Origin: Nemertoderma westbladi
Lineage: Eukaryota; Animalia; Xenacoelomorpha
Direction of reading: 5' to 3'
Length of the DNA stretch: 36,289 nt
Assembly: GCA_032718475.1 (NCBI GenBank)
Contig: JAUCBJ010005070.1
Coordinates: 1-36,289, forward strand
Under the pieces are notes generated by a model. It was not told where the DNA came from, made no database searches, and saw only the letters and a list, made by a program, of their open reading frames with translations. Of this stretch, positions 7,527-32,643 are shown piece after piece; position 1 is the first letter of the stretch, and each line of letters begins with the position of its first letter. The translations under genes were made by a program, and so were the position numbers.

Positions 7527-7815
7527 TCTACCAGCAACAATAAAATGTCATTGCATATGCATATGCCGGAATTCAAAGCCATTAACAATGTACATCAATG
7601 AACAAAATGCACGGTACCGAAAGATAAATGTTCTTGTGAAATTTTGAATTAAAAATGATTTATACCAGTAATGTTTTAATGCTTTTCAATTTTCGTTTTA
7701 TAAGAACGTTTAGCTATTTAAAATAGAAGTAAACAATAATGGCAGAACTGTGTTAGGTATATAATGGTTTTACCTTTCAACAGACAAAACTCAATCCATA
7801 CAGCCAAGCCATACG

Positions 7816-8584: not shown

Positions 8585-8730
8585 CATACGAGTCTATTCA
8601 CTAGTTGACAGTTGATTAATGAGACAGCAGGCAATCAACAAAGAGCGGGATAGCTCATTGGTTAAATGTAAGTAATGATCCTAACCAGGTTAGATCGGAT
8701 GTAACGTGGAGGCAGTTCCTTGAAAGTTCG

Positions 8731-12805: not shown

Positions 12806-13011
12806 TCCATATTACAGCCTCATGGATCTTCACCCAGATCAAACACTATTGAGCATCAAACTTCAGGCTCAGGTCTTAAGAAGTTGTATCCAAAATCAGT
12901 TCCTGTGTCACGCTTAATGAAGGCCAGAAAATTGAGCCTGGGCACATACGAAACGGCTGAGATTGAGTTACAGGAGTTTGATATAGAGAATTCGACTTGG
13001 GGGTCCTAAGA
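12806..13011 (+). pseudogene. Exon-like fragment resembling the region upstream of alpha-kinase domains in invertebrate proteins
   Basis: Open frame ...KKLYPKSVPVSRLMKARKL...EIELQEFDIENSTWGS; resemblance recalled from memory only. Confidence 0.3.
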
Positions 13012-13104
13012 GTAAGGTTATTGTATTCATAATATTATTATTTTAATTTGATCATTTACTTAAATCCGTCACCGCTTTATTTAAAAATTTCTCCCACCAC
13101 CTTA

Positions 13105-13552
13105 CCCGCTTATCCCGCTATCACCATCCGCCCAATCTTCTTCCTGATCCTCAGCATCATTACCACCACCACCATCACCCAACATCTCCATCATTCCTTC
13201 CAACTTTGACCAACTTCCAACCGATTGATTCTCTCCTCCATCGCTTTCTCCCGCGCACATCTCTCCGCCTCCCGCGCTCTCCTATCCCCCTCCGCCTCCA
13301 TTTCTAATGTCCAATCTTCTCCCCACGCGCTGTTCTTCCTCGCCTCTTCCTCCAAATAATTTTTTTTTCTATCTCCTCCCACTCATTCCTTGGATTTAAC
13401 AATCTTTCTAGCCGCGCTTCTTCTCTCTCCCTCACATACATTGCTACCAATATCTCTTCGTTCTCCTTCGCTACATCCTCATCTTCCTCCTCTTCCTCCA
13501 CATCCATATCCACTTCATCCACGGCAAGCTCATTTTCTCCCAACATATTCAC
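13105..13552 (-). pseudogene. Acidic, Glu-rich helical protein of unknown function (frameshifted)
   Basis: ORFs 13304-13552 and 13191-13382 join through a slip in a poly-A run (EIEKK/NYLEEE). A further shifted acidic tail ends near 13110. Confidence 0.5.
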
Positions 13553-13775
13553 GTATAATAAATAAATGTGTATATAATAATAATAATAATAATGTATAAT
13601 ACTATAAATAAGAAATTTATATAATATTTATTTCAATCGATAATTCATTATACCAACAAATAATTTACCACCACAAAATAATAATAATAATAATTTAACC
13701 GTGTCCGGCTCGTTGCAGCGACACTGCCTATGAACATGGTCTATTTATATAATAAAGTTTCTACCGCTCGAAGAT

Positions 13776-15067
13776 TCACACTGAATGTTTATTCTTCTTT
13801 ATTTGAGGTTGCCCATTAGTCTTGATTTCATTGAAAATGTCTTCACCATCATCCGTATCATTGACGATGTCCTCTTCAAAGTCGCCGATATCTTCATACG
13901 CATAGCTTGGTGTTTTATTCACGATGAGATCAATTTTTCGCTTAAGCGTTGTTCTTTCATGGCTTTAGGTGTTTTCATCTTCATCTGAGCGCTCACACCC
14001 CCAATGAGGGTATCAATATCCTTATAATCATTTTTTTTTTCAGCGCCGTTTACCCATTCATTTTCTGCAATCGCGGGCAACCAGATTTTTTTCTCATCCA
14101 TTTTCTTAGCAGTGACTTTTACTGCTTCGTACGTCTTCAGCTGACTAGCGTTGTTCGGCATTTCCACTTTCATTAGTTCCTCGTCCGCTAATTCATCAAT
14201 CGCAGCCTCAACAACTAACTTTTTAATCGGTAGAAACTCACACCCAGACGGAATATCGTGGCCCGCATACTTCTGTAATTGCTTAATTATCTTGACATTT
14301 GTGTTGTTTCGAGGGATGAAAATAACCTTGGTGTCGAAGTTGTGGGACAAATATATCCCATTTTCGTTAACGGTTGATGTGTACCTCATACTAACCTCAT
14401 CGATATTCTCGTTAACATTCTTATCTATGTTAAAGTCGAGCAAACAGAATTCATCCGCTCTGAGATTCAACCCATCGTAATATAGAACACCCTTCCATTG
14501 TCTACCTATATCATCCGCTTCCCAAACGCCGACAAATCGTTGCCCTTCAAAGTCGTAGATATATCCAATGTACCCACAATCTTCGAACTCCATAAAATTA
14601 TCACCGTGAATTTCCTTTTTCTTCGGTTCAATACGGGAAAGAACGACTTTGCCGTAGATGCTTTGTAAGACATCTAGAATTTTTAGGGAGATAAAAATTG
14701 ATGCGCCGTTTTTCCCAATGCGTAAGTACGCATGATTTATTGGCGTTATAAGCAAATTGCCTCTGGTGTATTCCTTGTAATATTCAATGGCTATTTTCTT
14801 ATAATTGAGGAAGTCAAATAGGAATCTTATGTTCTGGTAAGTAAGACTTACCGATTCTTGCACGACGTTGCATCCTTTGGTATCACCCCAATGGTTGAAT
14901 CGAACGTATTTCCCGTTAAATGCTTTTATTTCTATTCCTTCCCCCAAACACTCGAGGCCCCACACACTCTTACCTGTAATCACCGATACGTATGGGGCGG
15001 GCGCACTATCAGTAGAGCTACCGCTTAATGACATCATTTTTGGTTGTGATGGTTTCACAGATTCCAT
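13776..15067 (-). CDS. Putative tandem PC4-like (ssDNA-binding / coactivator fold) protein with an acidic C-terminal tail; probable late frameshift
   Basis: 383-aa ORF with two segments like the PC4 pattern: KAFNGKYVRF...SVSLTYQNIRFL and YDFEGQRFVGVW...DGLNLRADEFCLL. An alternative frame continues ...YEDIGDFEEDIVNDTDDGEDIF...HSV to a stop at 13776. Confidence 0.5.
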
Positions 15068-15189
15068 CAATAAATTTTGCGAAATATTAATAATTAAGTG
15101 TAAAAATACAATAATATCACGCTATACAATGTGCGAAAAATATGAATAATGAATTATAACCCGAATGACGAAATAAAGTATTTTACGAC

Positions 15190-15620
15190 GTATTTATAAT
15201 ATAATGATGGGCTATCGGGAAAACTGGTATATTTTAACCACTCAACCGGATTAATTGCTATTGTCCTGAGAGAATTTTTTTTGAAAAACTTCCTAAATTT
15301 CAAAGGAAATATTTATTTACGCTTAAATTGGTTGACGTAAGTAGTAACAGCTTGCGGTGGCGATTAATGCGACCTATATAAATTTTTATAGACACACCCC
15401 CGAATTTCCACAGAATATTACTCACGGTTAAATTGATTGACGTCAACTGTATTAACTGTGTAGCTTCTTAGAAGTTTCATAATTTTAAGCATGAGCGAAT
15501 TTAATTTAATGTCGGCATCGTAAACTTTCTCTCCCGATGGATATTTTTCTGTAATCATTTACTAAAAACGAATGATTGCGGCGCGCGAACGACGTTTTAA
15601 AGACACACCCATTATAAATA
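15190..15620. promoter_or_regulatory. Divergent promoter region between the PC4-like and dUTPase-like genes
   Basis: TATAAATA pointing outward on each side (15191-15198 minus, 15613-15620 plus). Duplicated TTAAATTG(G/A)TTGACGT(A/C)A at 15323 and 15428, the second a perfect CRE (TGACGTCA). Duplicated AGACACACCC at 15390 and 15601. Confidence 0.55.
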
Positions 15621-15654
15621 TACCCATTGGTCAAAATATTATTGATTAAGCGAC

Positions 15655-16312
15655 ATGACAATACTGGGGCAGCTTGAGTCTATAGATAAGATCATTTTTT
15701 CAAATATATTATTCATTGTTACCTTTCTTTTCGGAATATTTTTAGGTAAAATACGCCGTAATAAAAAAATGTTTCCAATAATACAAGCTAAAAATAGTTA
15801 CCGCGGTCCTAATTCAATTATTCCAATTAAAATTGAATTGTTAAGCCCCGCAGCTCGGGCGCCTGTATGTGGCTCATATAGTCCCGATGGGATTGATATA
15901 TATAGCGCCGTGAATAGAACAATAGAGCTGCACTCACGAATGTTAATTGAGATGGGTGTTAAAATATATTTACCCGCCAATTATTTTGGAAGAATTACAC
16001 CGACTTTTAGCTTGACAAAAATTGGCATTGATGTTGCAGAATGTGCGGTCGATTCCAATAATTACAAGTTGATCTATATTACCACGCGCGCGTGGTAATA
16101 TAGATCAACTTGTAATTATATTGATTAACAACACATCTAAGGAATACGTTGTAACATCGGGCGATAAAATATGCCAGCTTATATGCCAACAATGTAATGC
16201 GGCAATACTATACGTTTCTAATATTTATTCGGATGATTATTTTGGGCTTTTAGCGACGAATTTAACGCTGTATGGGGAAGAGATTAATTCAGCATTTCAC
16301 CGCACATATTAA
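15655..16312 (+). pseudogene. dUTPase-like protein with N-terminal hydrophobic helix, interrupted by an inverted duplication
   Basis: APVCGSYSPDGIDIYS, LPANYFGRITP, GIDVAECAVDSN..RGNI, LINNTSKEYVVTSGDKICQLI follow trimeric dUTPase motifs I-IV. Motif II RSG reads TFS and motif V is absent. Confidence 0.85.
16058..16119. repeat. Perfect 62-bp palindrome
   Basis: ATAATTACAAGTTGATCTATATTACCACGCG followed directly by CGCGTGGTAATATAGATCAACTTGTAATTAT. Confidence 0.97.
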
Positions 16313-16605
16313 ATATGTGACATTAAACGCATAACACAAAACTCGGGTGGTGACACATGTCAATACTATTTCAATACTCTTACACGCGATTATACAACAT
16401 AGTTAATAGAGCATATAAATAGGATAATTGTCAGTTCAGTAAATTTTGGTTGGTTAAATGGTTTCTAGCGCGGGTGGCTGACTGGGTATTGGATATATTT
16501 ATCTACATAAAATCTGCCGCATCTCTTTCATCGGCATATTGTAAATATGTTTTCTGTACCTACGTTAATAAATATATTATAATCGTAATAATAATAATAA
16601 TTATA

Positions 16606-19600
16606 ATGATGGAGATTAATTGCGTTTTTTGCGGTTGTACTATACTTAAGAAAAATTATTTATGGCATTTACGCACACATTTCGATGGGTATGTTTGCGA
16701 TAATTGTAATTGCCAAACTACTTCTGAAAGAATAGCAATATTTCACAGTAATAGATGTTGCGGGTTGTCTTGCCCGAATTACACCTACCGTGGTTACGCT
16801 CTATCCTGCCCAACATGCTCTGATGATTTTGAAAACTTTGATTCATATATCGAACATAGTTGCCATCAAAACCATTACAATTCCCGCAAACGCAAACATA
16901 ACCAAAAACAATCAGAACCGATATTTCAATCGAATCTCAACGTTGGTTCGCCTGTAAGCATTACAAACAGCTCAGATACACCCAACGAAGGTTTTCATCT
17001 CAAAAACATGTCACGAATCACGCGTTCAGGAATATACTCATAATGTACCATCTAATGAGATGTATCCGGATGTGCCGAATTATTTAAATTATATGGGGAT
17101 ATATGCTTCGCGCGCTTTTAACACGGCTGCATCGGCTTTTATTGATATGTTTTTTAAAGTGTGTGTGATTGCTTCGGTGATAATGGAACGTGATGATGCT
17201 AATTATACTTTACAAGAAGAATTCCATTTTACTTCGATAGGTACAGATAATTATATTGAAAATAGCTTGGATTTTGAAGAATGGTACTACACAGTCATTT
17301 CCCATATCGGTGAAAAAATATCGCAATTTATTAGGCGGGGTAGTGGTTGGAAACTTGTAACTCTATCGTGCATCAAACTTACTATTGCGTCATACTTGCG
17401 ATCGGTATATCGTTTTGGACATAGTGGTGATGCCAACCAATCAATCCCGACAAAATAAAAAATAAACATTGTATAATAAATGTACCGTGTAATGAAGGTG
17501 AATGTTTTAAGTGGGCGGTCCTGACAGCAAAATTTTCAAAACATATATCGGATGATCACACACTGTGCCATATTTCACTCCAAAGTTCTTATAATCAGTA
17601 TTTAGGGTTTTTTAATTTAAGCGAATTAGATTCTACCCTATCATGGAAACTAAATATTCTAAATTTTGAAAAAAATAATCCAAATTATTTAATAAATTTA
17701 TTGTATTTCGATAGAAGTAGCGAAAAAATGTCCTTTCTACGAGAACCGAGCGCTAAAAAAGCTGAAGGTAAAAGATTGCTAAATTTATTGCTTATTGAAC
17801 GTCAAAATTTAACCTTAACAAATCACATCGTCGGGGTTTCCAACTTAAATAGATTATTTAATGGTCGCGGGGAAGGCAATAGCGACACTCATTGTCTTCG
17901 TTGTGAGCGGTGTATTCGTGGCTTCTACAGTCCAAATGCGTTAAAACGCCATAGATTGTGGTGTTGGCAAGGTGGACGTCAAATAGAGGAGATGCCATCT
18001 AAACTGAATTTACACTTTACTAATTACTATGTGAGTACACCTTTTATAGTATATATGGATTTCGAATTTACGCTTTACTAATTACTATGTGAGTACACCT
18101 TTTATAGTATATATGGATTTCGAAGTGGTACTAGCCCCAACAAATAATGTAAAAAAATATTATATAGCCGAACATCTCCCGTCGGCCGTTTCATATTTGA
18201 TTGTCCCCAATAGCGAATTAATTAACCCACCAAATTATTTTTTGTCTACATTTAGACAAAATATCGATAATAACTCGGTACAGAATTTTATCGATAGTCT
18301 GGTTTTTGATTTATTTAAGTGTTATGAATGGTCTACCTTTAACACACACCACCCCAAACACCTGGATCACACACAATACCAAGCTTATATGCGTAACGCA
18401 AATTGCTTTAATTGTAAATCATTTTTTCGGGAAGATATAAATCCAAGTGTAATGCATCAGAACCATTACAACAGGGCTTTCATTGGTGCGGCATGTATTT
18501 CCTGTAATAAACAATTAAGTGTTAAACGTCACCTATTCCCAGTTGTCTGTCATAATTTTTTTTTATGATTCACATTTAATTTTACAAAAAGGGTTTGCCG
18601 GTAGTAAATATAAAAACTGGAACATTGAAACTATTGCAAAAAATACTGAAAGATATATCTCACTTCGCATAGATATTCCAATGTCAGAAGCACTTAGCGT
18701 GCTTGGTTATGCTATTCCAGAAAAGGACGTAAGAGGGCTCCCAACCAGCAAATCAATAACTATACAGGTTATTGATTCATTCGCGTTTATGGGATTTTCC
18801 CTTTCTGCTTTGGCTGGGTTTTTGACAAAAGATGTATCAGATTTAACAACCGTTATTCCACATACGGTGAAGCAAATGAGAAAATTATATCCAAATGTTA
18901 CCAACGAAATTTTACGTCGTAAGTCAGTTTTTCCTTACGAATATGTCGATTCCTTAAGTAAATTGGGGGATACTAAATTACCGCATCCAAAAGAGTTTTA
19001 CAGCGAATTAACATTATCATCTATTAGCCCTGAAAAAACTAAATCTAAACTAAATTGAATTTACGCTTTACTAATTACTATGTGAGTACACCTTTTATAG
19101 TATATATGGATTTCGAATTTACGCTTTACTAATTACTATATGAGTACACCTTTTATAGTATATATGGATTTCGAAGTGGTTCTAGCCCCAACAAATAATG
19201 TAAAAAAATATTATATAGCCGAACATCTCCCATCGGCCGTTTCATATTTGATTGTCCCCAATAGCGAATTAATTAACCCACCAAATTATTTTTTGTCTAC
19301 ATTTAGACAAAATATCGATAATAACTCGGTACAGAATTTTATCGATAGTCTGGTTTTTGATTTATTTAAGTGTTATGAATGGTCTACCTTTAACACACAC
19401 CACCCCAAACACCTGGATCACACACAATACCAAGCTTATATGCGTACCGCAAATTGCTTTAATTGTAAATCATTTTTTCGGGAAGATATAAATCCAAGTG
19501 TAATGCATTACAACGGGGCTTTCTTTGGCTGGGTTTTTGACAAAAGATGTATCAGATTTAACAACCGTTATTCCGCACACTGTGAAGCAAATGAGAAAAT

Positions 19601-21437
19601 TATATCCAAATGTTACCAACGAAATTTTACGTCGTAAGTCAGTTTTTCCTTACCAATATGTCGATTCCTTAAGTAAATTGGGGGATACTAAATTACCGCA
19701 TCCAAAAGAGTTTTATAGCGAATTAACATTATCATCTATTAGCCCTGAAAAATATACATTTGCTCATCTTTCGTGGGAACAATTTGAATGTGAGACACTT
19801 TTTGATTATTTGGAAGCTTACTTACATCTTGACGTGTTGCTGCTAGCCGATATTTTTGAAAATTTTCGCGCTTATTGTACTAAACATTATTCGCTTGAGA
19901 TCTCGAACTATTACACGATGGCGGGGGTTAGTTGGGATGCGGCTTTGAGATTTTCCAAGTCACATATTTGTCTACTTGCAGACCATGAAATGTATTTAAC
20001 ATTCGAAAATTCCATTAGGGGCGGAGTTTCTTACACCAACCTTCATATGGCAAATGCGAATATACCAGGCACAGAAACATACGACCCTAATAAACCTGAA
20101 GCTCATTTATATAATTTAGATTTCAACAGTTTATATAGCGGTTCATTGTTGGAGAAACTTCCTTATTTTGACTTTGAATGGTTGGATGTTGATAGTGTCG
20201 ATATCATGAGTCTGGAAATTGATGATATATATGGTTATTTTGCTGTTGTAGACCTTGAATACCCAACGACTATTCATGATGCCACAGCGGAGCTTCCATT
20301 TGCACCGGAGCATGTTAAACTCGATAGTAGGTATCTCAGTCCACACATGAAAAGTCTTTGGCGACATTATAATGGTGATAAAATTTTCAATAGTTCAACG
20401 AAAAAATTGATGTTAACCCAATTTGATAAGTATGAGTACGGTGTGCATCTAAAATTATTGCGCTTTTATATTCATCATGGCATGCGCTTGATTAAAGTTC
20501 ATAAACTTATTAGATTTAAGCAAGGTTACATTTTTAAGGACTTTATTGAATATAACACCCAGCAAAGAAAAATAGCAAGCAATGACTTTTATGATAAGTT
20601 TCACAAAGGAACAAATAACGCGCTTTTCGGGAAAAGCATGGAGAATATACGGGACCGTGTCTCATTTCGCTTATGTAATTCAATCGAGAAATGTGACTTA
20701 TTATTATCCAAGCCGAATCACAAAAATTTAATTATGTTCACTGATTCATTATCAGGTCACGTCCTATCTAAAACTGCGGTTTGTTTGCATAAACCTATTT
20801 TTTTAGGCCAAGCTGTATTGGACCTGTCGAAGTTAGATTATTACAGTTTCTTCTACGAGAAATTAATGCCCCTGGAAGCCGAATTAAATTGTAGTATAAA
20901 TTTGTTAGGCGGGGACACGGATTCTTTTTTTTACAGTGTGTTGGTTTATCCCAACACCAATTTTTATCTGCGTTACAATCAAAAAAAGTTTTAGACTGTT
21001 CAAATTATCCTATTACACATCCGCTGTATACAGTAGAACAGAAAGGGAAATATAGATATTTAAAGGATGAAGGGAAGTCTATCCCGTTTGACCATGTTAT
21101 TTTACTTAGACCAAAATGTTATAGCTTTCGTGGGGGGCCAGTTCCAAAACGTGTCACTAAAGGCGTAGGAAAAATGGTTATAAAAAAGAAACTCTCCCAC
21201 GAATCATATTTAAAAGTATATAACGAGGTTAGCGAGCATTACGAATACAGTCAAAGGTTTCAATCTAATTTACATAAAATCTACACCGTTTCACAAAGAA
21301 AAAAATCGCTAACACTGTGGGAAGATAAAAGATACTACACATCGACTAATGAAAGTCTACCTTACGGCCATTATAAATCACATTTGGATCGTAAAGCGCC
21401 TGCCCCTAAGCTTTATATACCGCCCATTATAGAATAG
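16606..21437 (+). pseudogene. pPolB: Protein-primed family B DNA polymerase (Zn fingers, terminal-protein region, vOTU-like, exonuclease with endonuclease VII-like insert, polymerase); fragmented and partly duplicated
   Basis: RRGSGW, NEGECFKWAVL, PFIVYMDFE, HNFF/YDSHLI, DSFAFM, RKSVFPYEY, DVLLLADIFENFR, IRGG, DFNSLY, KGTNNALFGK, GDTDS, KDE, LRPKCYS, KGV, EDKRY, LPYGH. Confidence 0.96.
18000..19751 (+). repeat. Tandem duplication within pPolB (period 1051 bp); second copy internally deleted
   Basis: ~18000-19036 recurs nearly identically from ~19050. Both copies contain the same 58-bp duplication (18006/18064 and 19057/19115). Copy 2 lacks ~18483-18809. Confidence 0.93.
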
Positions 21438-21446
21438 CGGATTGCG

Positions 21447-22011
21447 ATGTCTTTTAGTGTTGTCAACAGTAATATAAGTTTGAGGTTGGTTGATGGGTGC
21501 ATATCATTCGATGTGCTGGCTAAACGAATTCGAAATGGAAAACTCATCTTAAAGCCTTTTCAATATATCACCAAAATTTGCGGATGGACGTGTCTCTTTT
21601 TCCCGAGCGGTAAGGTCACTGTACTCGGTAAATCGCCTAAAATAAAAAAAATTATTAAGTATATATATAAGCATACTGATTATAAACTAACTTTTATTTC
21701 AATCAATAGCCAAACTTATATTATTAACAATCTAGACATAGACTATAGGAAATTAATGAAAACGGTCGGGTTTCATTTTTTAGATAATTATTATAATGCG
21801 GAGGGAGGTGAAATATGAGCCGGAGATATTTAATAATATTCTTGTGCAGTTTTATCGTCGGGGTAAAACTAGTTCTAATATCATAACATTTTGCATTTTT
21901 TACACACGAAATGTTGTGTGTATGGCAAGACCCGGGATATTTCGAGTATTTTTTCCAAAGTTTTTGAATTTTATTGGTAATTTAGATAGTCATTTAGGTA
22001 GAAATATTTAA
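21447..22011 (+). pseudogene. TATA-binding-protein (TBP)-like protein, one frameshift near 21800
   Basis: Repeat 1: VVN...ISFDVLAKRIRNG...KPF...TCLFFPSGKVTVLG. Repeat 2: SIN...IDYRKL...KYEPEIFNNIL...FCIFYTRNVVCM. These match TBP motifs TALIFSSGKMVCTG, YEPELFPGL and LIFVSGKVVLTG. Confidence 0.8.
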
Positions 22012-22431
22012 TTTTTTCATTTCTGGTGCCAGTTTTAGGTTTGTCCGGCGGGATCTCGTTAGGTTTTTAAATAAACGCGGATATTACCATTATTCACATT
22101 ATATATAACGTGTTTTATCGGTAGTCTTAGGTTGTCAAGGGCGTCAATTTCATTTCTGATGTTGGTTTACATTTACATAAATCTAGTCTATCTGTCTATT
22201 TGTCGGTCTTTCTGTCAGTCAGTATGTCAAACTTAATTCATTGTTCGCGTTATATAATGTATTTTATTAATTATCGATGTTAGGTTTTAAAGAGTGCTGG
22301 TTTCTATAATTGCTCGGTTTTATCGCGTGAAAAACCCCACCCGCGCATATACTCGATACTATTTATAACGGTGGCGGTGTTTTATTACTTACTATTATTG
22401 TTCTCATTTATATAAGTTATTAATATATGTA

Positions 22432-22896
22432 ATGAAATCACTCAAAGCTTTAATTAAACAATTTGACGGGGATTTAAAGTTCTTATCTAACACCTCCCTT
22501 AACCGTAGAAAAACCTTCTTACACGTTGGTGGAACCGATGAACTTATAAGTTTCCTAATTAATATTATTCTAAATGTATTAAATGGTAAGGTAAAAATTC
22601 CTGAGCAAACAATCGCAAGGTTAAAACGCCATAAAAAAACAATACGCGAGATCGCTAAAAAACCAACAGCAGCCAAGTATCCCATCAGAATTTACCATAA
22701 ACGATTGGTGCAAAGGGGCGGATTTATAAATCTACTAATCTCTGGTTTAATGAGTGGGCTTAACGCTTATCAGAAAATATCACCCATAATAACGGCTGTA
22801 AGAGGCAGAAAATTAGCCCAATCCCGCCGGGGGTATAGACCTAGTACCTCTGGTATACGCGTCAACCGTCAAGTTTCTAGGTTTCCTATCTACTGA
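22432..22896 (+). CDS. Basic Polinton virion/core-type protein with a putative adenain cleavage site
   Basis: NIILNVLNGKVKI...LKRHKKTIREIA...LVQRGGFINLLI, a Gly-Gly site followed by an amphipathic segment; sits immediately upstream of the ATPase. Confidence 0.65.
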   Translation: MKSLKALIKQFDGDLKFLSNTSLNRRKTFLHVGGTDELISFLINIILNVLNGKVKIPEQTIARLKRHKKTIREIAKKPTAAKYPIRIYHKRLVQRGGFINLLISGLMSGLNAYQKISPIITAVRGRKLAQSRRGYRPSTSGIRVNRQVSRFPIY

Positions 22897-22913
22897 GTGG
22901 CTACCTATCAACA

Positions 22914-23624
22914 ATGTCCCGAGAGCCGGCGATATCGCAGGAACCAATCACATCATACAACACCTCTTTCAAGATGGGTTTGGCCATGATTATTGCGGGT
23001 CCAAGTTCTTCCGGAAAAACAGTGCTGGTATCAAAAATTGTTAAAAATAAAAATTTAGTTTTTGATATAACCCCGAAGCGTGTATTATTCTTTTATGATG
23101 CCACCCCACCTGAATTCCCAGGTATAACACATCTATTCAAAGGTTTACCGCAAAAAATTAATTCTATTTTCCGCGAAAACGATCTAATTATTATAGACGA
23201 CTTGTTAAGCGAAAGTAAGAGTGATGAGAGTTTGACAGAAAGCTTCACAAAAACCTGCCATCATACTTCCTGTTTCATTATCTATATAACACAAAATTTT
23301 TTCAGTAAAGGGGCGGAAACACGGACTAGAAGTCTAAATGCCCAATATTGTATTTTCACAAAAAATCCCCGCGACGCAAGTCAAATTAGTTATATAGCAC
23401 GGCAAGTGTAACCAAAAAATAGCAATTTTATTGTTCAAGCATATAGCGACGCCACACAAAAACCATTCACACACCTTCTCTTAGACTTTCATCAAAAAAC
23501 GGATGATAGTATAAGAGTTAGGGGTGATATTTTCAACCCATTAGGGCAAACTGTTTATCAACCCACGAACACGAACTCTAACACACCACACCAAGGCCCT
23601 GAGGCTCAGTCTATACCGCAGTAG
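22914..23624 (+). pseudogene. A32/FtsK-like genome-packaging ATPase, one premature stop at 23409-23411
   Basis: Walker A GPSSSGKT, Walker B IIIDDLL, ITQNFF, RTRSLNAQY, KNPRDASQI. The same frame resumes after TAA with AYSDATQKPFTHLLLDF to TAG at 23624. Confidence 0.92.
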
Positions 23625-23746
23625 CGACGCCGGACGAAAACCATTTTCACACCTTGTTTTAGACTTTCATCAAAATTAGGTTATTATCTGTCCATGAACG
23701 TGAACTCTAGTATATAGTATTAATATATTAATAATGATATATAACG

Positions 23747-24205
23747 ATGAAAAATAATGAGATTAGCCTCGGAAATTTTAAGAAGTTGTATCTAGTTTCT
23801 ACTTTATTAATGGATACTTATAATAATAATAAGAAAAGCAATAATATAATACAACCGCTAGATGGTATGGCAATTTCATTCCAGAAAGCCAAACGATTGT
23901 TGAGTTATTTGATGCGATTCTCGCGAGACAGAGTATGGTGGAGTGATAATAATAAACTCTATATAGAAAATGAACTTATACCCGGAGCGAATATTGATCA
24001 TTTGATTGAATTGCTGACTACAAAAAAAAATAAGAAAAACACCAAAATAATTCCAAGACAAACAACATTTTTGGGGTTATTAAAACGATTAAGGATACCA
24101 AAACGATTAATTGGTCGCGGTTGGTTGAAACGACAAGGGGTCCGTGTGACCCCCTCCAACGCAAAACGCGTCGACGCGTGGAAACAATACGTAGGATTAC
24201 AATAA
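23747..24205 (+). CDS. Basic hypothetical Polinton protein
   Basis: KAKRLLSYL...WSDNNKLYIENELIPGANIDHLI resembles an ORF I recall near the ATPase/integrase of such elements; intact 152 aa. Confidence 0.55.
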   Translation: MKNNEISLGNFKKLYLVSTLLMDTYNNNKKSNNIIQPLDGMAISFQKAKRLLSYLMRFSRDRVWWSDNNKLYIENELIPGANIDHLIELLTTKKNKKNTKIIPRQTTFLGLLKRLRIPKRLIGRGWLKRQGVRVTPSNAKRVDAWKQYVGLQ

Positions 24206-24323
24206 ATCGACGTGTGGAAACAAAACGCGGGATAACATTAAAATAGTAGTATGTTTTTTGAACGTTTCATATTAAGTATTAACTGTCATTGCAAGTGTTT
24301 TCTACCGCGACTCGACACAACCG

Positions 24324-25415
24324 ATGGGGAGAATCGTAGAAAATTGAACAAACAAACGACTGGGAAGAATATATTACGATGTTTCAAATGCTGCCGGTTT
24401 CGCGAGCGTAACCAAACTAGCGAAAGCCTCTAAAGTTACGAGAAATCGCGCAAAGGAGTGGTTGAGCTCCCAACGAATGTATTCCCTACACGTGCCGGCT
24501 AGGCGCCATTACCCGACATCAAAAATTTTCACGGGCGGCATTGGAGATCTATATCAGGCGGACCTATGCGATATGCAACCCTTTAGGGTGGAGAATAATG
24601 GTTATGGTTACATAATTACTTGTATCGATTGCTTTAGTCACAAGGCGTGGGCACTAGGGTTAAAACGTAAAACCGGTGTCGAAATTAAACGCGCCCTAAC
24701 CACAATATTCGAAGAAAGAAAGCCTAAAACACTGGCGGTTGATCAGGGTACTGAGTTTGTAAATAAATTAGTGAAAGAATTCTTACAGAATAATAATGTT
24801 AATTTTTATACATTAGTTAGCCAATTTAAAGCTAGCATCTGTGAGAGGCTTAACCGCACACTTAAGTCGAAAATGTATAAAGTGTTCACAAGGCGGCAAA
24901 ATAAGAAATGGATCGACATATTACCAAAGCTGGTAATTTCATATAATAATTCAATACATAGAACCATCGGTATGGTGCCAAACTCAGTCAATAAAAATAA
25001 TGAAACTGACTTATTTTTAAAACTATATGGCAGTGTGCGCCATCCCAATAAAAAGAAACGCCGCGAACAGCGTCGAGTTTATTTCAAAGTTGGTGATAAA
25101 GTGCGTCTGAGTTTAACCGCGATGCCATTTTCCAAAGGATATACACCTAACTATACCTGGAAAATTTTCGAAATTTCTAGAATGCAGATGGATCGAGAGC
25201 CGTACCCTATGTACGAAGTTATGGATGTGAATAGGCGTGTTATTAAAGGGACATTTTATCAATATGAAATGAAAAAGGTGAAAGAACCGTTTGAGTTCTT
25301 ACCAATTGAAAAAGTAATCAAGGAAAAAGTAATTAACAAAAAAACAGGAAAAAAACAATACCTGGTAAAATTCGTTGGTTATGCGAAGCACCGGTGGGTT
25401 GATAGGATACAATAA
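24324..25415 (+). CDS. Retroviral-like (rve) integrase with C-terminal chromodomain; in-frame stop at 24345-24347 after the likely ATG
   Basis: IYYD...EWLSSQRMYSLH, QADLCDM, CIDCFS, VDQGTEF, ASICERLNRTLK, YNNSIHRTIGMVP, FKVGDKVR, FSKGYTPNYT, IEKVI...YLVKFVGY...WV. Confidence 0.93.
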
Positions 25416-26284
25416 TGGATCGCTTACATTTGACATTGACTTCTGACGCCAGTCTAGATAAATATCCTAACAACACCCCGAGCAATTTTACAATTGAATT
25501 GTCCAAACCTATCCCCATTACCACGGATTGGGTTGTGGGCCTAAAAGAAATACAATATATATCAACTTATAGGAATATTGAGCAAAGATCCGGAATTAAA
25601 ATTGGTGAATACATGGAAGATGGGGATATACCATTCCACATTGCCCCGTATAATCTTATTGAAATCGATCTTAATCATGGGCTGTATGCTTCCGTTGAGT
25701 CAATTATAAATTATATTACCGTATATTTGAAAAAAAATTCCGTAGCACATCATGGTTTCTCCGATGTTAAGTTTAATTATCACAAGCATACATCGAAAAT
25801 ACATTTGCATTCTATGAAATTTCCAATTCTACGGGGATTTAATAAATATATTTGGCTTATCGTCTTTAAAAAATAACATACTTGGTCTTGGTGCATTTTG
25901 GTCAATACATTACAACCCAGAAGACAACTTACTAAGTTTAGGCTCTAGAAATTCAGACAAAAATGGAATTGAATTTCCTGAACCCTGCGATATAACGAGG
26001 GATAGACATACAATGTTTATATATACAGATATAATTGAATCTTCCCACGTGGGGCATTCTATGGTTCCTCTTTTGCGGATAATTCCGTTAAAATGGCAAC
26101 CATACTCATTTATAAGTCAAGAGTTCGAAAACACTCATTACAAACAGTTAAAAAATCAAAAAATTTGTTAATACAATTAGTATAACGCTTCGCGATCATA
26201 AAGGAAAGCATATAGTGTTTCATGGTGGTAAAACAATTTTAGTTCTAGAACTAAAAAAACAGTCGCAATTACAAAACTGGTATA
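25415..26284 (+). pseudogene. Minor capsid protein (penton-like) 1, frameshifted; 3' end approximate
   Basis: N-terminus LTLTSDASLDKYPNNTPSNFTIEL...WVVGLKEIQY; shifted C-terminus MFIYTDIIESSHVGHSMVPLLRII...ISITLRDHKG...TILVLEL. Start overlaps the integrase stop (TAATG). Confidence 0.85.
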
Positions 26285-27090
26285 ATGATGAACAGTTATT
26301 ATGTTGTACTACCTTCAAACGCGAACCCAATAGAATTTTCACTTAATAATGCTAGCGATTTCCAAACAAATTTACAAATTCCTTTACCTATTGCTAGAGG
26401 GCAATGGTTAGTAGGTTTGACTAGTATAACCTACGTATCTAGTATTCGTCACGATAATAGTAACATTTATATAAAGGCTATAAAAAATAAAAAAATGGAT
26501 ACAAGAGATGTCACTCTCCCAGAAGGGTCGTTCCTGACATTGGAAAGAATCATTGAGTTCTTCAACAAAAGCATTATTAAAGCACAAATTAATATAGTTG
26601 ATAATAGAGCGAGGTCAGGCGATATAACTATTCATTTCAAAGGGAAAGAATGGGAAATATTCGTTAGCAAACGTTTGGGTGGTTACCTAGGATTAATAGA
26701 GCACGATATTGATAAATTAGGTTTCAAGTGCGTAAAAACCGACGTCGGAGATTATAATTTATTAGAATTAATCCGCGGAATAATAAGTACCAGTGCCATA
26801 AACATCCCGACGCAGTCGAGATACTAGACCCTAACATAAATATTCACCTTAATTGTGTTGAATCTCAATTTGTGGACAATAACGAATATCGGCTGTTGCG
26901 AACCATACCATTAGAAGGGGAATACGGCGAAGTCATTACTAGGGAAGTCAAACAGATATACTATAAAAAACTTAAAGTAACATCTAATTTACGCTATATA
27001 CGGGCTAAATTGGTTGGGGATTCGGGTGATCTGTTGCGCTTTCATTATGGAAATTCAATATTGATGCTTCATTTTATACGAATTGACTGA
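26285..27090 (+). pseudogene. Minor capsid protein (penton-like) 2, frameshifted
   Basis: YVVLPSNA...NNASDFQTNL...WLVGLTSITY; C-terminus VESQFVDNNEYRLLRTIP...YYKKL...GDSGDLLRF...LMLHF. Confidence 0.85.
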
Positions 27091-27164
27091 GATAGTCACA
27101 ATTTAATCGATGTAAATTATTTATTATTTATTATTATCTGATTATCTGAAGTAATAGCGACTAT

Positions 27165-27730
27165 ATGGATAAATTTCTAAGTCGCAGCTGCGGGCGTGAT
27201 TATTACCTGATGCTGGAAAACCCAGGAATAATAGTAGATTTCCAATATTATACGCATCATCCGCAGATCGGCCAACACCCCGTTGCAACCATTTATTTTA
27301 AAGAGTTTGCGGCTTATAATACTACCATCAAATCATTAGAAAATGTATGGTTTATTAATGGACCGCCCGCAAAAATTTTAAGTTTAAGCGAATGCGATCG
27401 TCTCACACAACTCGCCAATATTACGCATCATATTAATTTTGACTATGGATTTATGGACCAAAGCGCATTTAAAATGTACATACAGGAATGGTTACAAGAA
27501 AAAAAACGGTTGGGGTTTCAAATATTAATACGTGGAATACCGAAATTATTTATTTTAAAAAATGAATTTAATGTGAATGGAACACTTCTAGAAATGTACG
27601 GCATAAACGAAAAATATGTCGATTATGACACCAAATGCATTTTCCATACCATTCTGATAAAGATTCTTGTTTTAATTACTGTTCTATGAAACTCGCAGTT
27701 GGTTATGGGAAATGGTTGTCATCAAATTAA
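27165..27730 (+). pseudogene. DEDD/RNase H-fold nuclease-like protein with Maelstrom-like E..H..CxxH..C pattern; late frameshift
   Basis: IIVDFQYY...FKEFA...THHINFDYG...ILIRGIPK...CIFH, then in a shifted frame SCFNYCSMKLAVGYGKWL to TAA at 27730. Confidence 0.5.
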
Positions 27731-27852
27731 TGTGTATATATTTATTAATTATATTGTATTATTATGTGGTACATATATTATTTGTTGATTACACATATAT
27801 GTATGTAGTAAAGAATTATTATTATACGTTATAATAAATACTCATAATAATA

Positions 27853-28380
27853 ATGTCAGATTCTAATTTGTTTAAATTATATAGCACCCCACAAATCCAA
27901 CTGGGAAGTGGGAATTATAGCGATATACCCGTTTTTAAGGGTGGAAGCATTCTCCCCGGGTTTGGCCCATCTACTGGTGTATGGAATAATAAGAATAATA
28001 AATTCGGCCAGCGACACACCCAAAATCGTCAGCGTGGGCGCGGAATATTAACAACTGGCCTCAGTATATTAGCGCGCAAGTTAGGGAGAAAGGTGCTAAC
28101 TAAAGCACTCCCCAAAGCAGCAAAAGCGGCGCGGAAATACATAATACCGGAAGGAAAACGTATTTTACGCAGTAAAGCAGATGATTTGATAAATAAAGTG
28201 GCCGCGCGGTTAGAACCTTATCCAAAGACACGCCAAATCGCCCAACGGGTATACAATGAATTTACAAACCCGAAAAGTAAAAAAAAGAGGAGCGGGAAAC
28301 GGCGACACCCAAGTGTGGGTATGAACGTTGGGCGCAAACGTAAAAAGCGAAATAATAAATGTTGTGATATTTTCATGTAA
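27853..28380 (+). CDS. Arg/Lys-rich core (pVII-like) protein with putative protease cleavage sites
   Basis: QLGSG, VFKGG and QRGRG sites, a very basic C-terminus ending DIFM; directly upstream of the major capsid gene. Confidence 0.7.
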   Translation: MSDSNLFKLYSTPQIQLGSGNYSDIPVFKGGSILPGFGPSTGVWNNKNNKFGQRHTQNRQRGRGILTTGLSILARKLGRKVLTKALPKAAKAARKYIIPEGKRILRSKADDLINKVAARLEPYPKTRQIAQRVYNEFTNPKSKKKRSGKRRHPSVGMNVGRKRKKRNNKCCDIFM

Positions 28381-28387
28381 TTTAACA

Positions 28388-29638
28388 ATGAGTAAATTAG
28401 AATTATCATTATTCTCTAGTAAAACAAATCAGCGAGAATATACAACTTCACATTTTTTGGATATCTACCCGATTTCTACTCTTGACACGAATGCCAGGCA
28501 AATAGAGTTCTTTATACCCCAGTCAAATGTTCTATATACTGATTTAAAGAATTCGAAATTTCACATTAAATATAAAATTACATGGGACGGTAATAGGGCT
28601 AACGACGATACAACCCTCCACCATCTCAATTACCCAGATGGGTCACTGTTTGAGAATTGTACGTTGTACCTAAATGAAAAGCTAGTTGAAACCTCGAATG
28701 GGTTCTACGCCTATAAGTCTACGTTTCAGACATTACTGTTGACAGATGTTAACGAAAAACGCGGTATTTTAAGAGCTGGTGGTTATGAGGATACAGATAA
28801 TAATCTAGGCGGGGTACCTGTCGCTACTGGGAACGACGTTCGTGGGAATTATGTTAAATTCGTTGTGGCCCCAATTTTTTTAGACCTAACAAGTCAGGAC
28901 AAATTACTGCCGCCAGGAATTAACATTCGACTTCGTATAGACCGAGTATCGAATAATTTTTTTTTGAAAGTTGAACCCCCCGCAGGATTGGCAAACCCAA
29001 GAGTTGAAATCATGAATATTAATTTAAAAATAAAACACCACAGGATTGATGCCGGGGTTATGCGCGCGCATTTGTTGGGGTCACAAAAAAATGACTTTAT
29101 TTATAACTTGTTAAAACAAGAAGTGAAAACCTTCACTATTGGTAGCGGACAGTCCAGTTATACAGAATCGAACATAATCCAAGGGAAATTACCTAAGTAT
29201 ATTTTGATTTGAATGCTTACCAACGCCAGCTTCAACGGAGAATTAAGCAGTAATCCGCTACATTTTAACCATTTCGGTTTAAATTATGCCGAACTAAACA
29301 TCGACTCCCTTATTATACACGGGTATCCATATCGCCCTAACTTTCCAGAAAACAATTTTATGTTGGAATTCGAAAGTTTAATGAACGTGTTCAAGAGCTT
29401 GAGCGGCGTATTTTGCTCGCTAACACCAGAACGGTTTCGTACCCAATTTCCTTTGATAGTATTTGATCTTACAGTGGGAGGCAATCGAAGCCATGAGATT
29501 CAACCTAGTATACATACAAGCGGGCATTTGATTCTGAAATTTAGTAATACGCTAGTTAACACTATTAACATTATATTAATGGCAAGCTATGACGCTTTTC
29601 TATCTATTTCGGAAGCCAAGGAAATAATAACCGAATAA
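28388..29638 (+). pseudogene. Major capsid protein (double jelly-roll), one premature TGA at 29210-29212
   Basis: MSKLELSLF, IEFFIP...YTDLKNS, SLFENCTLYLNE, YAYKS, QDKLLPPGINIRLRI, GKLPKYILI*MLTNASFNGELSSNPLHFNHFGL, VFDLT, GHLILKFS. Both ORFs are in one frame. Confidence 0.9.
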
Positions 29639-29737
29639 ATAAAGATCTCGCATAGTACAAAGTAAGCGAAGCCGCACCGCACCGCCTGTGGAATTAGAAA
29701 AATTCTCTTAAACTTTTAATGATACGCGCACGCTAAG

Positions 29738-30273
29738 ATGTTGGACTCTATACAATTAGCGAAATTCCCGGTGGGGCCCGAATACATCGGTGTTTACGCA
29801 ATCGACCAATTACACCTAATACACGCAAAAAAAATAAGCATAAACAAAATTATTCATTTATTATTAATAATCAACGTATAGGCCTACCGGGGCAACACTG
29901 GTCTTGCATATGCGTGGTTAACAGAATTGCTTATTATTTAGATTCGTTTGGTAAAGCCCCACCACCGAAAATATCCTATTGGTTGCATAAATATACCCAA
30001 AGGCATACTTGGAATTGTAAAATATTTCAAGCGCCACATTCGACTCAGTGTGGTCTATTTTGTCTGTATTATCTAACCGAGGTGCCGAAAAATCCCGGAG
30101 CAATGAATATATTCACCTCTAATTTGCGGTACAATGATTTATTGTTATTACTGTGGACACTTTCGTTAATAAAATTATTTATTTATTTCGGTTATGGGTA
30201 TATTCAATTGCGGTGTGTGAAAATATTATTAGCATTAATATTAATAATAAATATTTATTTCTTGGGTATATAG
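29738..30273 (+). pseudogene. Adenain-like cysteine maturation protease, frameshift near 29830-29850
   Basis: YIGVYAIDQL / FIINN...PGQHWSC...YYLDSFG...FQAPHSTQCGLFCLYY; catalytic H, D, Q and C are present. Confidence 0.9.
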
Positions 30274-30924
30274 TAATAGCAATATTTTTAATAAATATAT
30301 GGGACGTGGTAAGTGACGTGGGTGGGGTCTTCACGCGGCACTATTCGTTTTTTAATTTTTTTAATTTTCATCGTCAATCACTGAAACCTTGTGAGGTAAA
30401 GTCTTTAGCGCGTGGGCGCCAGTAAAACCGGAATAATTAGACATAGCCATATTGGGGCCCAACTCTTTCCATTATATACCAAGCATCTGCCGCCCAACCT
30501 ATGTGGTTAACACAAAGGCCAGAATCTCTATCCATGCTACGCGCATTAGACAATAATTAAACGCTCTAACGACAATCAAAGGTCTGGGTTCAATTTACTC
30601 GCATATGTGACCGGTTTCACAAAAGAAGAAATAAGCCATATACGAAGCATAGATAATTAGCCTTACCAAATTAGCTAGTTCTGTTATAATAGTATAATAG
30701 TTTACTATATTAACATCGGGAATAGCGATACCGATATCACTTTATTAATTAAATTATTAAATTATAAACTATCTAAATAAACTAAAACTCACTATGCTTT
30801 TTATATTTAGTAGTTTGAATGTTAATTCAATAGTTTTATATTAAGTTAGATTTCACATTATTGTTTGTAAAACTTATATTTTGTAAGTCAATAATTAAAT
30901 AAACAACTAAAACATATCGACATA

Positions 30925-31392
30925 ATGGCTGCAGGCGGTGATAAATCAATCTCGGAGATTGCCGCAACTTTATTGTGGGTGAGACGGCGGCAAGAGCTAC
31001 GAAGCGACGCAAACCCGAATCCAGAAGCAGAAGACCCCATCCAACAAGTACCTGTTTCTGGCAGGGTGCCCCAAACTTTCGGCGAGGGGACTCGCGGTGG
31101 TACCATTGAACCCCTTAGAAGGCCTAATACACCAATGGCAACGGCATATAGGCCTATCAATTTTTATCCGACGATTGGTAGGCCTCTTAGGCCTATTGCC
31201 ATGGTATTTCCGAATAGGCGGCCCCGAGGGCGAGGTCGTGGTTTATCGCCGTGGTTCTCCCCGGATCCACCGCAAGAAGGGGTACTCCCTGCGGAGCCAG
31301 GGAGAATTGTTGGTGGGGGAGTCCGCCCGACTTGCGCCTGCCCCCCAAGAGTGATAGGGCAAACGAGAATGCAGCCTCCCACCCAACATTAA
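30925..31392 (+). CDS. Pro/Arg/Gly-rich hypothetical protein near the right end of the Polinton
   Basis: Intact 155-aa ATG ORF forming a GC-rich island between AT-rich flanks, with AATAAA downstream. Confidence 0.5.
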   Translation: MAAGGDKSISEIAATLLWVRRRQELRSDANPNPEAEDPIQQVPVSGRVPQTFGEGTRGGTIEPLRRPNTPMATAYRPINFYPTIGRPLRPIAMVFPNRRPRGRGRGLSPWFSPDPPQEGVLPAEPGRIVGGGVRPTCACPPRVIGQTRMQPPTQH

Positions 31393-31759
31393 TGTAAGTA
31401 ATAATTTAATTTCAACAATTAATATAATAACAATAAATAATTACCAAAATTCAACAATAGTACCCATACGCTAAAGGCTTTGCTCACTCCGCGCTGCGCG
31501 GGTACCCATATTCTAAGGCTTCGTTCGATTCATGGCTCGTCCTATTTTTTCATCAAATCACTGTATAACCGAGTTATTAGCAATTAAAATTTATGTTGGC
31601 GCCGGACGGCGATAAGACAACTCACCGATAGCGCGTATATGCTTTCACACACTTCATGGCTCACCCCTCTGCATATAAGTAGAATAATCATAATAAAATA
31701 ATATTATAAATACTATAACTTTATACTCACTTCACGGCTCGCCCCACAACTAGTGGTTT

Positions 31760-31856
31760 AGTCAAATGTTCTATATACTGATTTAAAGAATTCGAAATTT
31801 CACATTAAATATAAAATTACATGGGACGGTAATAGGGCTAACGACGATACAACCCT
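31760..31856 (+). repeat. 97-bp copy of major-capsid segment 28521-28617
   Basis: AGTCAAATGTTCTATATACTG...GACGATACAACCCT reads identically at both places. Confidence 0.95.

Positions 31857-32643
<787 letters not shown>

What the first reader, a model, noticed from the sequence alone, without database searches (positions are those of the whole stretch)
13010..31759. Adintovirus-like element with a putative transcription and host-interaction accessory module
Seen: besides the complete core (pPolB, ATPase, integrase, protease, MCP, two mCPs), the element carries TBP-like, PC4-like, degenerate dUTPase-like, DEDD/Maelstrom-like, acidic and Pro/Arg-rich ORFs. A divergently transcribed left block is followed by a co-oriented structural block. 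Known: cellular PC4 acts at the TBP-containing preinitiation complex. Inference: TBP, a PC4-like protein and an acidic activator-like protein could form a minimal viral transcription module. I do not recall this combination described for Polintons, but I cannot check the literature.
Basis: partly seen in the sequence, partly recalled or inferred. Interest (0 to 1): 0.8.

Follow-up and report, generated by a model that had tools for sequence, protein, structure and literature searches.

The report
Decayed Polinton virus carrying own TBP
A broken copy of a repeated virus-like transposon (Polinton/adintovirus) in a likely animal genome carries its own version of the cell's TATA-binding protein, which likely helps switch on viral genes; its other extra genes likely serve DNA copying and evasion of silencing rather than forming one transcription machine.

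Summary
The element is real (13010 to about 31730): a decayed copy of a Polinton/adintovirus with an Alpha-type polymerase. Host DNA runs cover its whole length with many variant contigs. At least six of seven core genes are interrupted. The TBP-like gene holds up: Pfam TBP, two repeats, E 3e-4 when read with X at its frameshift, plus Atlas support. A second TBP-bearing element (L044) groups with it on a polymerase tree (long branch). The dUTPase-like gene holds up. The PC4-like call rests on weak scores, the Maelstrom-like call on motifs seen by eye; the acidic and Pro/Arg ORFs have no support. The three-gene 'transcription module' is not supported. Related elements carry PC4 genes with no TBP detected, and Starrett et al. 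2021 already label MOSUB (PC4), MAEL and dUTPase on adintovirus maps and TBP on a related virus map. Best reading: TBP is likely a viral promoter factor working with host polymerase II, and the PC4-like protein is likely a single-stranded-DNA-binding protein for replication. No shared late-promoter box was found here. This scan noted Polinton TBP, PC4 and MAEL genes before on other DNA.

The parts
13010..13065 (.). left end, imperfect terminal inverted repeat
   Evidence: flank contig ends at 13010; 79.6% match to 31673-31723 reversed
13304..13546 (-). acidic/charged low-complexity ORF (33% D/E, 19% K/R); gene status unproven
   Evidence: no family or homologue; length differences between copies at three places nearby
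13919..15067 (-). 382-aa ORF with repeated beta-meander+helix units; likely tandem PC4-like (MOSUB-type) single-stranded-DNA-binding protein
   Evidence: hhalign to Polinton PC4 family E 0.015, probability 3%; low-confidence folds; top VIA row 7jta, PC4-like, Z 5.3, rmsd 1.8, 44 aligned, tied with unrelated folds; 11 of 24 listed differences in residues 1-270 synonymous; AATAAA at the stop
15192..15200 (-). TATA box (ATTATAAAT) upstream of the PC4-like ORF
15611..15619 (+). TATA box (ATTATAAAT) upstream of the dUTPase-like gene
15655..16312 (+). degenerate dUTPase-like gene in two frames, with a fold-back repeat at 16041-16136 inside it
   Evidence: Pfam dUTPase 3.2e-4 and 1.1e-5; PHROG 135 2.8e-7; inverted repeat I5
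16606..17043 (+). Cys/His-rich ORF; likely the zinc-finger N-terminus of pPolB cut off by a stop, or an Oncoid-like gene (no LxCxE)
   Evidence: related pPolBs carry C2H2 fingers (P0047, P0082; L044 N-terminus)
17060..21437 (+). protein-primed DNA polymerase B (Alpha/PF03175 type), broken by frameshifts and internal duplications
21370..21378 (+). TATA box (ATTATAAAT) 77 nt upstream of the TBP-like start, inside the pPolB 3' end
21447..22011 (+). two-repeat TBP-like gene, frameshifted near 21800 in this copy
   Evidence: Pfam TBP E 3.4e-4, 2 stretches, 20.8 bits against a cut-off of 22.9, read with X at the break; Atlas 26 of 30 hits TBP clusters; own TBP profile E 0.0067 among 5503 sequences
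22432..22896 (+). conserved basic virion-module gene
   Evidence: homologues in 7 loci; family profile E 3e-13
22914..23624 (+). packaging ATPase with an in-frame stop at 23409-23411
23747..24205 (+). conserved small gene before the integrase
   Evidence: family profile E 4e-4
24348..25415 (+). RVE integrase (open frame; start codon uncertain)
   Evidence: Pfam rve 2.5e-11; homologues in 45 loci
25415..26261 (+). minor capsid protein 1, frameshifted
26285..27090 (+). minor capsid protein 2, frameshifted
27165..27730 (+). possible MAEL (Maelstrom/DEDD-like) gene; a Cys-containing tail continues in another frame
   Evidence: no tool match; motif resemblance is recalled, not from a call; frames
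27853..28380 (+). basic core-protein-like gene in the pre-MCP slot
   Evidence: profile of the relatives' pre-MCP gene not significant; shares a QRG-G motif and a terminal DIF with them by eye
28388..29638 (+). major capsid protein with an in-frame stop at 29210-29212
   Evidence: phmmer to 6 and 5 loci for the two pieces; AATAAA at the stop
29738..30273 (+). cysteine protease (adenain-type), frameshifted
30925..31392 (+). Pro/Arg-rich ORF; gene status unproven
   Evidence: no homologue; several joints in other copies skip DNA just upstream and into its start
31673..31727 (.). right-end imperfect inverted repeat

Best explanation
This is a decayed copy of a repeated Polinton/adintovirus whose extra genes likely do separate jobs: the TBP-like protein is likely a viral promoter-recognition factor working with the host's RNA polymerase II, and the PC4-like protein is likely the single-stranded-DNA-binding protein for strand-displacement replication. 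Shown: the gene set, the two-repeat TBP gene, a TBP gene downstream of pPolB in a related element, PC4 genes in related elements where no TBP was detected, ordinary TATA boxes before the PC4-like, dUTPase-like and TBP-like genes, and poly(A) signals at several stops. Inferred order of events: (1) host TBP reads the ordinary TATA boxes and expresses the non-structural genes first; (2) pPolB copies the linear genome from its ends while the PC4-like protein covers the displaced strand; (3) the viral TBP, which keeps the aromatic DNA-contact positions and the acidic YEPE loop, would then bind A/T-rich DNA before the structural genes and recruit host TFIIB and polymerase II; (4) the MAEL-like and dUTPase-like products would act on host silencing or signalling, not on transcription initiation. 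This copy cannot do these things itself: most of its genes are broken.
For: TBP identity from three tests. Motifs line up with TBP repeats printed by tools: LFFPSGKV and YEPEIF with LIFRSGKV and YEPEQF of an archaeal TBP, and with the yeast repeats shown. L044 has a Pfam-passing TBP (5e-13) downstream of its pPolB and groups with the window's pPolB at SH-aLRT 98-99 in two quick trees. PC4 genes in L016, L085 (two) and L102, with no TBP hit there. In 7 of 7 syntenic loci the stretch between pPolB and ATPase gave no TBP hit. Canonical TATA in 4 of 6 non-structural upstream regions (P 0.035) against 1 of 10 structural ones. PC4-fold proteins bind single-stranded DNA, and the phage T5 homologue is a predicted replication/recombination SSB (PMC7549692, PMC8545432, passages). 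Herpesvirus TBP mimics drive late genes with host polymerase II (PMC7498053, abstract).
Against: The PC4 call for the window protein is not statistically established, so its role is inferred twice over. No shared box before the 11 structural genes passed a family-wise test for exact words, so the target of the viral TBP is unknown. L044 has two small ORFs between pPolB and TBP that look PC4-like by eye, which would favour co-occurrence; tools do not confirm this. Most related loci are fragments, so absence is weak. The window's tree branch is long (1.35-1.64), and long branches can attract each other. The TATA counts rest on few genes and on my own choice of start codons. That the YEPE loop binds TFIIB and that the phenylalanines intercalate DNA is recalled knowledge.
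Confidence: 0.55

Rival explanations
1. The first reader's module: viral TBP, PC4-like coactivator and an acidic activator act together as a minimal pre-initiation unit on viral promoters.
For: TBP-like and PC4-like genes share the same upstream box ATTATAAAT (3 of 6 non-structural genes, shuffle mean 0.16; motif chosen after looking), which suggests co-expression. L044 may pair TBP with PC4-like ORFs (by eye only). Human PC4 is described as a replication and transcription cofactor (PMC7549692).
Against: PC4 genes in L016, L085 and L102 have no detected TBP. The three genes are not clustered (13.3, 13.9 and 21.4 kb). The acidic ORF has no homologue and varies in length between copies. The shared box also precedes the dUTPase-like gene, so it marks early genes in general.
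Confidence: 0.17
2. The TBP-like protein is a decoy or repressor: it occupies TATA boxes or soaks up host TFIIB, shutting off early viral or host genes rather than activating late ones.
For: No private late box was found. The gene sits behind an ordinary TATA box. The sequence is far from cellular TBP (no PDB hit; below the Pfam cut-off), so partner surfaces may be lost.
Against: Both repeats and the YEPE loop are kept. Known viral TBP mimics activate late genes (PMC7498053, abstract). Earlier notes of this scan report matching late boxes in other Polintons (unchecked).
Confidence: 0.15
3. The accessory ORFs are passengers: captured host or viral fragments that decay and have no function in the element's cycle.
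For: TBP-like, dUTPase-like and MAEL-like genes are broken in this copy. No close homologue of the TBP-like half or of the 382-aa protein in the large protein searches.
Against: The core genes are broken just as often. Host contigs cover the accessory genes along with the core in three runs, and high-depth contigs differ in length from this copy at several of its frame breaks (table 4). Residues 1-270 of the 382-aa ORF show a synonymous excess (11 of 24; P 0.004-0.047 by model, region chosen by me; whole ORF 12 of 32, P 0.018-0.16). TBP recurs in L044.
Confidence: 0.13

Closest known systems
Adintoviruses (animal Polintons/Mavericks) with Alpha PolB; Starrett et al. 2021, PMC8502044
   Same: PF03175-type pPolB, integrase, FtsK-type ATPase, adenain, hexon, penton. 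The text of Supplementary Fig. S2 lists MOSUB, MAEL (4 times), dUTPase and SSDBP as gene labels.
   Different: Two minor capsid genes; a TBP gene behind pPolB (in that paper TBP appears only in the legend for MELD viruses with adintovirus-like PolB); pPolB at most 43% identical to anything found. I could not see the maps, so I do not know which genome carries which label.
Syntenic Polinton-like loci L016, L065, L084, L085, L092, L100, L107
   Same: Same virion-module genes in nearly the same order; tandem PC4 gene on the opposite strand near an end in L016 and L085.
   Different: No TBP, dUTPase or MAEL-like hit; one minor capsid gene; their PC4 proteins end in a Cys/His motif and match the window's protein only weakly.
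Locus L044 (metagenome contig, 5.7 kb)
   Same: pPolB followed by a two-repeat TBP gene; sister to the window on the pPolB tree, with L035.
   Different: Two small ORFs lie between pPolB and TBP; its TBP is closer to cellular TBP; the contig ends inside the TBP gene, so the rest of the element is unseen.
Beta/gamma-herpesvirus TBP mimics (KSHV ORF24 and homologues); PMC7498053
   Same: A viral TBP-fold protein in a nuclear DNA virus that uses host polymerase II (abstract).
   Different: ORF24 has a separate N-terminal polymerase-binding domain and five viral partners; the protein here is a bare 187-residue core and no partner or late box is shown.
PC4/Sub1 fold family, including the phage T5 PC4-like SSB; PMC7549692, PMC8545432
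   Same: Repeated four-strand-plus-helix units predicted; two units in one chain form a domain in type I members.
   Different: Membership of the window's protein is unproven; it may hold up to four units plus a variable tail (by eye).
mael-associated polintons of insects; bioRxiv 10.1101/2025.02.07.637071
   Same: A mael gene as a Polinton accessory (passages).
   Different: The window's ORF was not matched to MAEL by any tool.

Membership tests
Polinton/Maverick (adintovirus) | [quoted passage not shown] | tested here: met
   Pfam DNA_pol_B_2 4e-15; 695 homologues; gene broken in this copy
Polinton/Maverick (adintovirus) | RVE integrase | tested here: met
   Pfam rve 2.5e-11
Polinton/Maverick (adintovirus) | packaging ATPase, cysteine protease, major and minor capsid genes | tested here: met
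   capsid identity is by homology to syntenic loci, not by a fold
Polinton/Maverick (adintovirus) | long terminal inverted repeats and target-site duplication | tested here: inconclusive
   only a 54-nt, 80% repeat; no duplication seen; right end rearranged
Alpha adintovirus | PF03175-type PolB | tested here: met
   definition from PMC8502044 section 3.1
Alpha adintovirus | N-terminal OTU domain of PolB | not tested
   the N-terminal piece matches 59 related pPolBs, but no OTU profile was run on it beyond Pfam (no hit)
Alpha PolB with Beta-class virion module | Cupiennin and GasderminX genes | not tested
   no reference sequences fetched; two basic genes occupy such slots
TBP family (PF00352) | two TBP repeats | tested here: met
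   2 stretches, E 3.4e-4, just under the curated cut-off; Atlas clusters with TBP on 47% and 43% of members, score 0.91, 185 of 256 features, low recognition score
TBP family (PF00352) | binds TATA-type DNA and TFIIB | not testable with these tools
   motifs kept; binding untested
PC4/Sub1 (PF02229, MOSUB) | sequence match to the PC4 domain | tested here: inconclusive
   no Pfam hit; hhalign E 0.015 and 0.046; own repeat profile not significant
PC4/Sub1 (PF02229, MOSUB) | four-strand sheet plus helix, paired with a second unit | tested here: inconclusive
   models of mean pLDDT 31.6 and 49.3; best VIA row a PC4-like protein at Z 5.3, tied with propeller blades
Maelstrom/DEDD (MAEL) | RNase H-like DEDD fold with Cys/His zinc site | tested here: inconclusive
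dUTPase | dUTPase domain | tested here: met
dUTPase | five catalytic motifs intact | tested here: not met
   by eye against recalled motifs: several are altered and the C-terminal glycine-rich motif is not seen; Pfam match covers profile positions 15-107 of 129
herpesvirus-type late transcription system | viral TBP plus a distinct late-promoter box | tested here: inconclusive
   TBP present; no shared box before 11 structural genes in this one decayed copy

The most novel reading that the evidence does not exclude
A polymerase-defined lineage of Polintons (this element, L044) carries a bare two-repeat TBP as a one-protein early-to-late switch: host TBP opens the early genes at ordinary TATA boxes, then viral TBP with the multi-repeat PC4-like protein as promoter-melting cofactor redirects host polymerase II to the capsid genes. 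This would be the smallest viral pre-initiation system known, coupling replication and late transcription through one single-stranded-DNA-binding protein.
Probability: 0.2. Interest if true: 0.8.

Novelty: new variant of a known kind. Interest (0 to 1): 0.42.

Why it matters
How Polintons time their genes, and what protects their displaced DNA strand, is not described in the papers I read. A captured TBP that marks one polymerase lineage gives a direct test: does it bind and activate structural-gene promoters, as herpesvirus TBP mimics do? The rest of the accessory set is already labelled in print, and this copy is too decayed to show the promoter logic, so the finding mainly adds one more member and one tree link to a pattern that this scan has noted several times.

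Tried and rejected
No whole genome is held for the window, so copies could be seen only through contigs of public runs. Protein searches gave no homologue for the 382-aa ORF or the TBP N-half. Direct viral-contig scans with MCP and integrase found nothing; alignment-based scans did. PDB sequence searches were blank or chance for the TBP pieces, the 382-aa and the DEDD-like ORFs. No phage-collection match for pPolB. The single-sequence fold of the full 382-aa protein was unusable. Foldseek on the 125-residue model gave no match at E 0.001, and no PC4 or Sub1 entry proper is among the 50 VIA rows shown; with such a model this shows nothing. The Atlas gave no answer for the PC4-like and DEDD-like proteins. 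No RNA holder was listed, so expression is untested. My first Pfam survey covered 300 of 303 cluster representatives of 453 filtered ORFs and missed the L044 TBP because my overlap filter had dropped it; the later profile searches over all 5502 stop-to-stop frames replace it for TBP. Whole-record searches reached only 5 of 44 loci asked for and found neither TBP nor PC4. Motif search before structural genes: no exact word passed (best family-wise P 0.07); the one-mismatch run gave a few 4-of-11 words, none TATA-like, under a null that was too lenient (60 shuffles scored against themselves), and I rejected them. The TBP-PC4 complex prediction was not run: the TBP gene is broken, neither chain has an alignment, and a blank would not count as evidence. 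The careful tree did not finish; both trees are quick ones.
Full report
What is there. The stretch 13010 to about 31730 is a Polinton (Maverick, adintovirus). A host contig of ordinary depth ends exactly at 13010, a 54-nt imperfect inverted repeat joins the two ends (79.6%), and CpG is not depleted inside, unlike the left flank. Contigs of three of four public DNA runs cover all 30 bins of 12500-31850; the fourth covers 23. In run X1 the summed depth is 13,000-85,000 between 13.8 and 29.9 kb against about 100 for the flank contig, with hundreds of differing places. This is no copy count, but it fits a family of many copies and shows that the accessory genes belong to the family, not to this site alone. 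The flanks hold a reverse transcriptase, a DDE transposase fragment and a PWWP ORF, so the host is a eukaryote, likely an animal.

The core. pPolB, integrase, ATPase and protease are seen by Pfam; MCP and two minor capsid genes by phmmer to related loci. The polymerase is of the PF03175 (Alpha) type; the 120 best of its 695 relatives are 35-43% identical. The copy is decayed: frameshifts and internal duplications in pPolB, in-frame stops in ATPase and MCP, frameshifts in both minor capsid genes and the protease. High-depth contigs differ in length from this copy at several of its frame breaks, so many breaks are likely private to it.

The TBP-like gene. Its halves alone hit nothing in Pfam, PDB or 1.84 billion representatives. 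The Atlas gave 26 of 30 hits in clusters where 43-47% of members carry Pfam TBP (score 0.91, 185 of 256 features; recognition score low, so moderate evidence). Read with X at the frameshift, it matches Pfam TBP in two stretches (E 3.4e-4, 20.8 bits, cut-off 22.9) and is the best non-self hit of my TBP profile among 5503 sequences (E 0.0067). LFFPSGKV and YEPEIF align with the same motifs of an archaeal TBP. By eye, four phenylalanines fall where the yeast repeats printed have them; their DNA-intercalating role and the TFIIB-binding role of the YEPE loop are recalled knowledge. I take the gene as a true, divergent, two-repeat TBP core of 187 residues.

A second TBP element. Of 112 Polinton-like loci searched in all frames with the TBP profile, 1 has a TBP gene: L044, downstream of its pPolB (Pfam 5e-13; PDB TBPs at 6e-7). 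On two quick pPolB trees (107 rows; then 46 rows chosen by me, leaving out the long branch L076) the window groups with L044 and L035 at SH-aLRT 98 and 99. The window's branch is long, so this is suggestive only. L035 ends at its polymerase gene; L076, in the same group in the first tree, gave no TBP hit in the 1.4 kb held behind its polymerase.

The PC4-like gene. The 382-aa ORF is open, has a poly(A) signal at its stop, and among the 40 best-supported of 79 differences to other copies, the 32 inside the ORF include 12 synonymous ones (11 of 24 in residues 1-270): mild purifying selection. Its PC4 identity is likely but unproven: no Pfam hit, hhalign E 0.015 and 0.046 to the Polinton PC4 family, low-confidence models with repeated strand-meander-plus-helix units, and a PC4-like protein (7jta; PMC8545432, passages) as top VIA row at Z 5.3, tied with unrelated folds. 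Real tandem PC4 genes are present in 3 of 109 related loci (L016, L085 twice, L102), two of them in the group of seven loci that share the window's virion-module genes and order. None of the three gave a TBP hit. PC4 is thus an accessory of this virus group that does not need a viral TBP, as far as these partial loci show. For a genome copied by strand displacement, a single-stranded-DNA-binding role is the simplest; the phage T5 PC4 homologue is a predicted SSB. Against this: L044 has two small ORFs next to its TBP that look PC4-like by eye but score nothing.

Other accessory ORFs. The dUTPase-like gene is real, split around a fold-back repeat, and by recalled motifs not an active enzyme. The DEDD/Maelstrom-like ORF matched nothing; I keep it as possible MAEL on recalled motifs and a Cys/His tail. 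The acidic and Pro/Arg ORFs lie in the variable ends of the family, have no homologue and no LxCxE motif; nothing supports an activator role.

Promoters. Canonical TATA boxes lie within 200 nt of 4 of 6 non-structural starts (P 0.035 against shuffles) and 1 of 10 structural starts; ATTATAAAT precedes the PC4-like, dUTPase-like and TBP-like genes (motif chosen after looking). This fits early genes read by host TBP. No shared box before the 11 structural genes passed a corrected test, so the late-switch idea taken from earlier notes of this scan is not confirmed on this copy.

What is known. Starrett et al. 2021 (PMC8502044): I read part 1 of 3 of the Results, section 3.4, search passages and the text layer of Supplementary Fig. 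S2, not the figures. The supplement labels MOSUB, MAEL, dUTPase and SSDBP on animal adintovirus maps; MoSub1 is a PC4 orthologue (PMC4350104, start of abstract). The Fig. 5 legend has TBP for MELD viruses with adintovirus-like PolB. mael-linked polintons are described in bioRxiv 10.1101/2025.02.07.637071 (passages). TBP genes are known in mirusviruses (PMC10132985, passages) and as late-gene factors in herpesviruses (PMC7498053, abstract). Term searches inside PMC11161782, PMC11131425, bioRxiv 10.1101/2023.08.22.554363 and 10.64898/2026.10.13.758929 found no TBP or PC4. Library searches pairing Polinton, Maverick or adintovirus with TBP, TATA or PC4 (listings of 20-40 rows seen, not all hits) showed no paper on a TBP of animal Polintons or on a TBP-PC4 pair; subscription papers and Repbase reports are not covered.

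Verdict. Observation partly confirmed; interpretation partly supported. The element is a new, divergent member of a known virus group. Its accessory genes are mostly catalogued types. The three-gene transcription module remains possible (about 0.17-0.2) but has no direct support. Interest 0.42.

Noticed in passing
window 31760-32642: Directly after the right end lies a 101-nt, 99% identical copy of part of the MCP gene (28521-28621), then an (AC)393 run; a rearrangement or an assembly artefact.
   Followed up: partly
window 16041-16136: Fold-back inverted repeat (48-nt arms, no spacer) inside the dUTPase-like gene.
   Followed up: partly
window 17999-19759: Internal duplications in pPolB (about 490 and 230 nt, 96-98% identical) and a 58-nt tandem repeat; contig depth is lower over the second copy.
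   Followed up: partly
window, 16 gene starts in 13010-31730: 6 of 16 start codons are preceded by TA (TAATG; background 13%, P 0.014); integrase and first minor capsid gene overlap this way, and close stop-start overlaps also occur in L065, L085 and L107.
   Followed up: partly
window 31703-31711: The ATTATAAAT box also sits inside the right terminal repeat, facing outward.
   Followed up: no
window 7812-8588: Small element with terminal inverted repeats and internal 20/40-nt tandem repeats, likely a non-autonomous transposon.
   Followed up: no
window 2510-4484, 9392-10275, 33867-34607: Reverse transcriptase of a LINE, DDE_1 transposase fragments and a PWWP-domain ORF in the flanks.
   Followed up: no
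L085 2298-2666 and 13550-13933: Two PC4-family genes in one element, one near each end.
   Followed up: no
L102 4778-6849: Bcl-2 homologue and a tandem PC4 gene behind pPolB.
   Followed up: no
L055 5447-6085; L112 7353-7913: Other Polinton-like loci carry other transcription-type genes: a VLTF3-like factor and an HMG-box protein.
   Followed up: no
L111 2740-4248: One ORF matches both the integrase and the protease of the window: a likely integrase-protease fusion.
   Followed up: no
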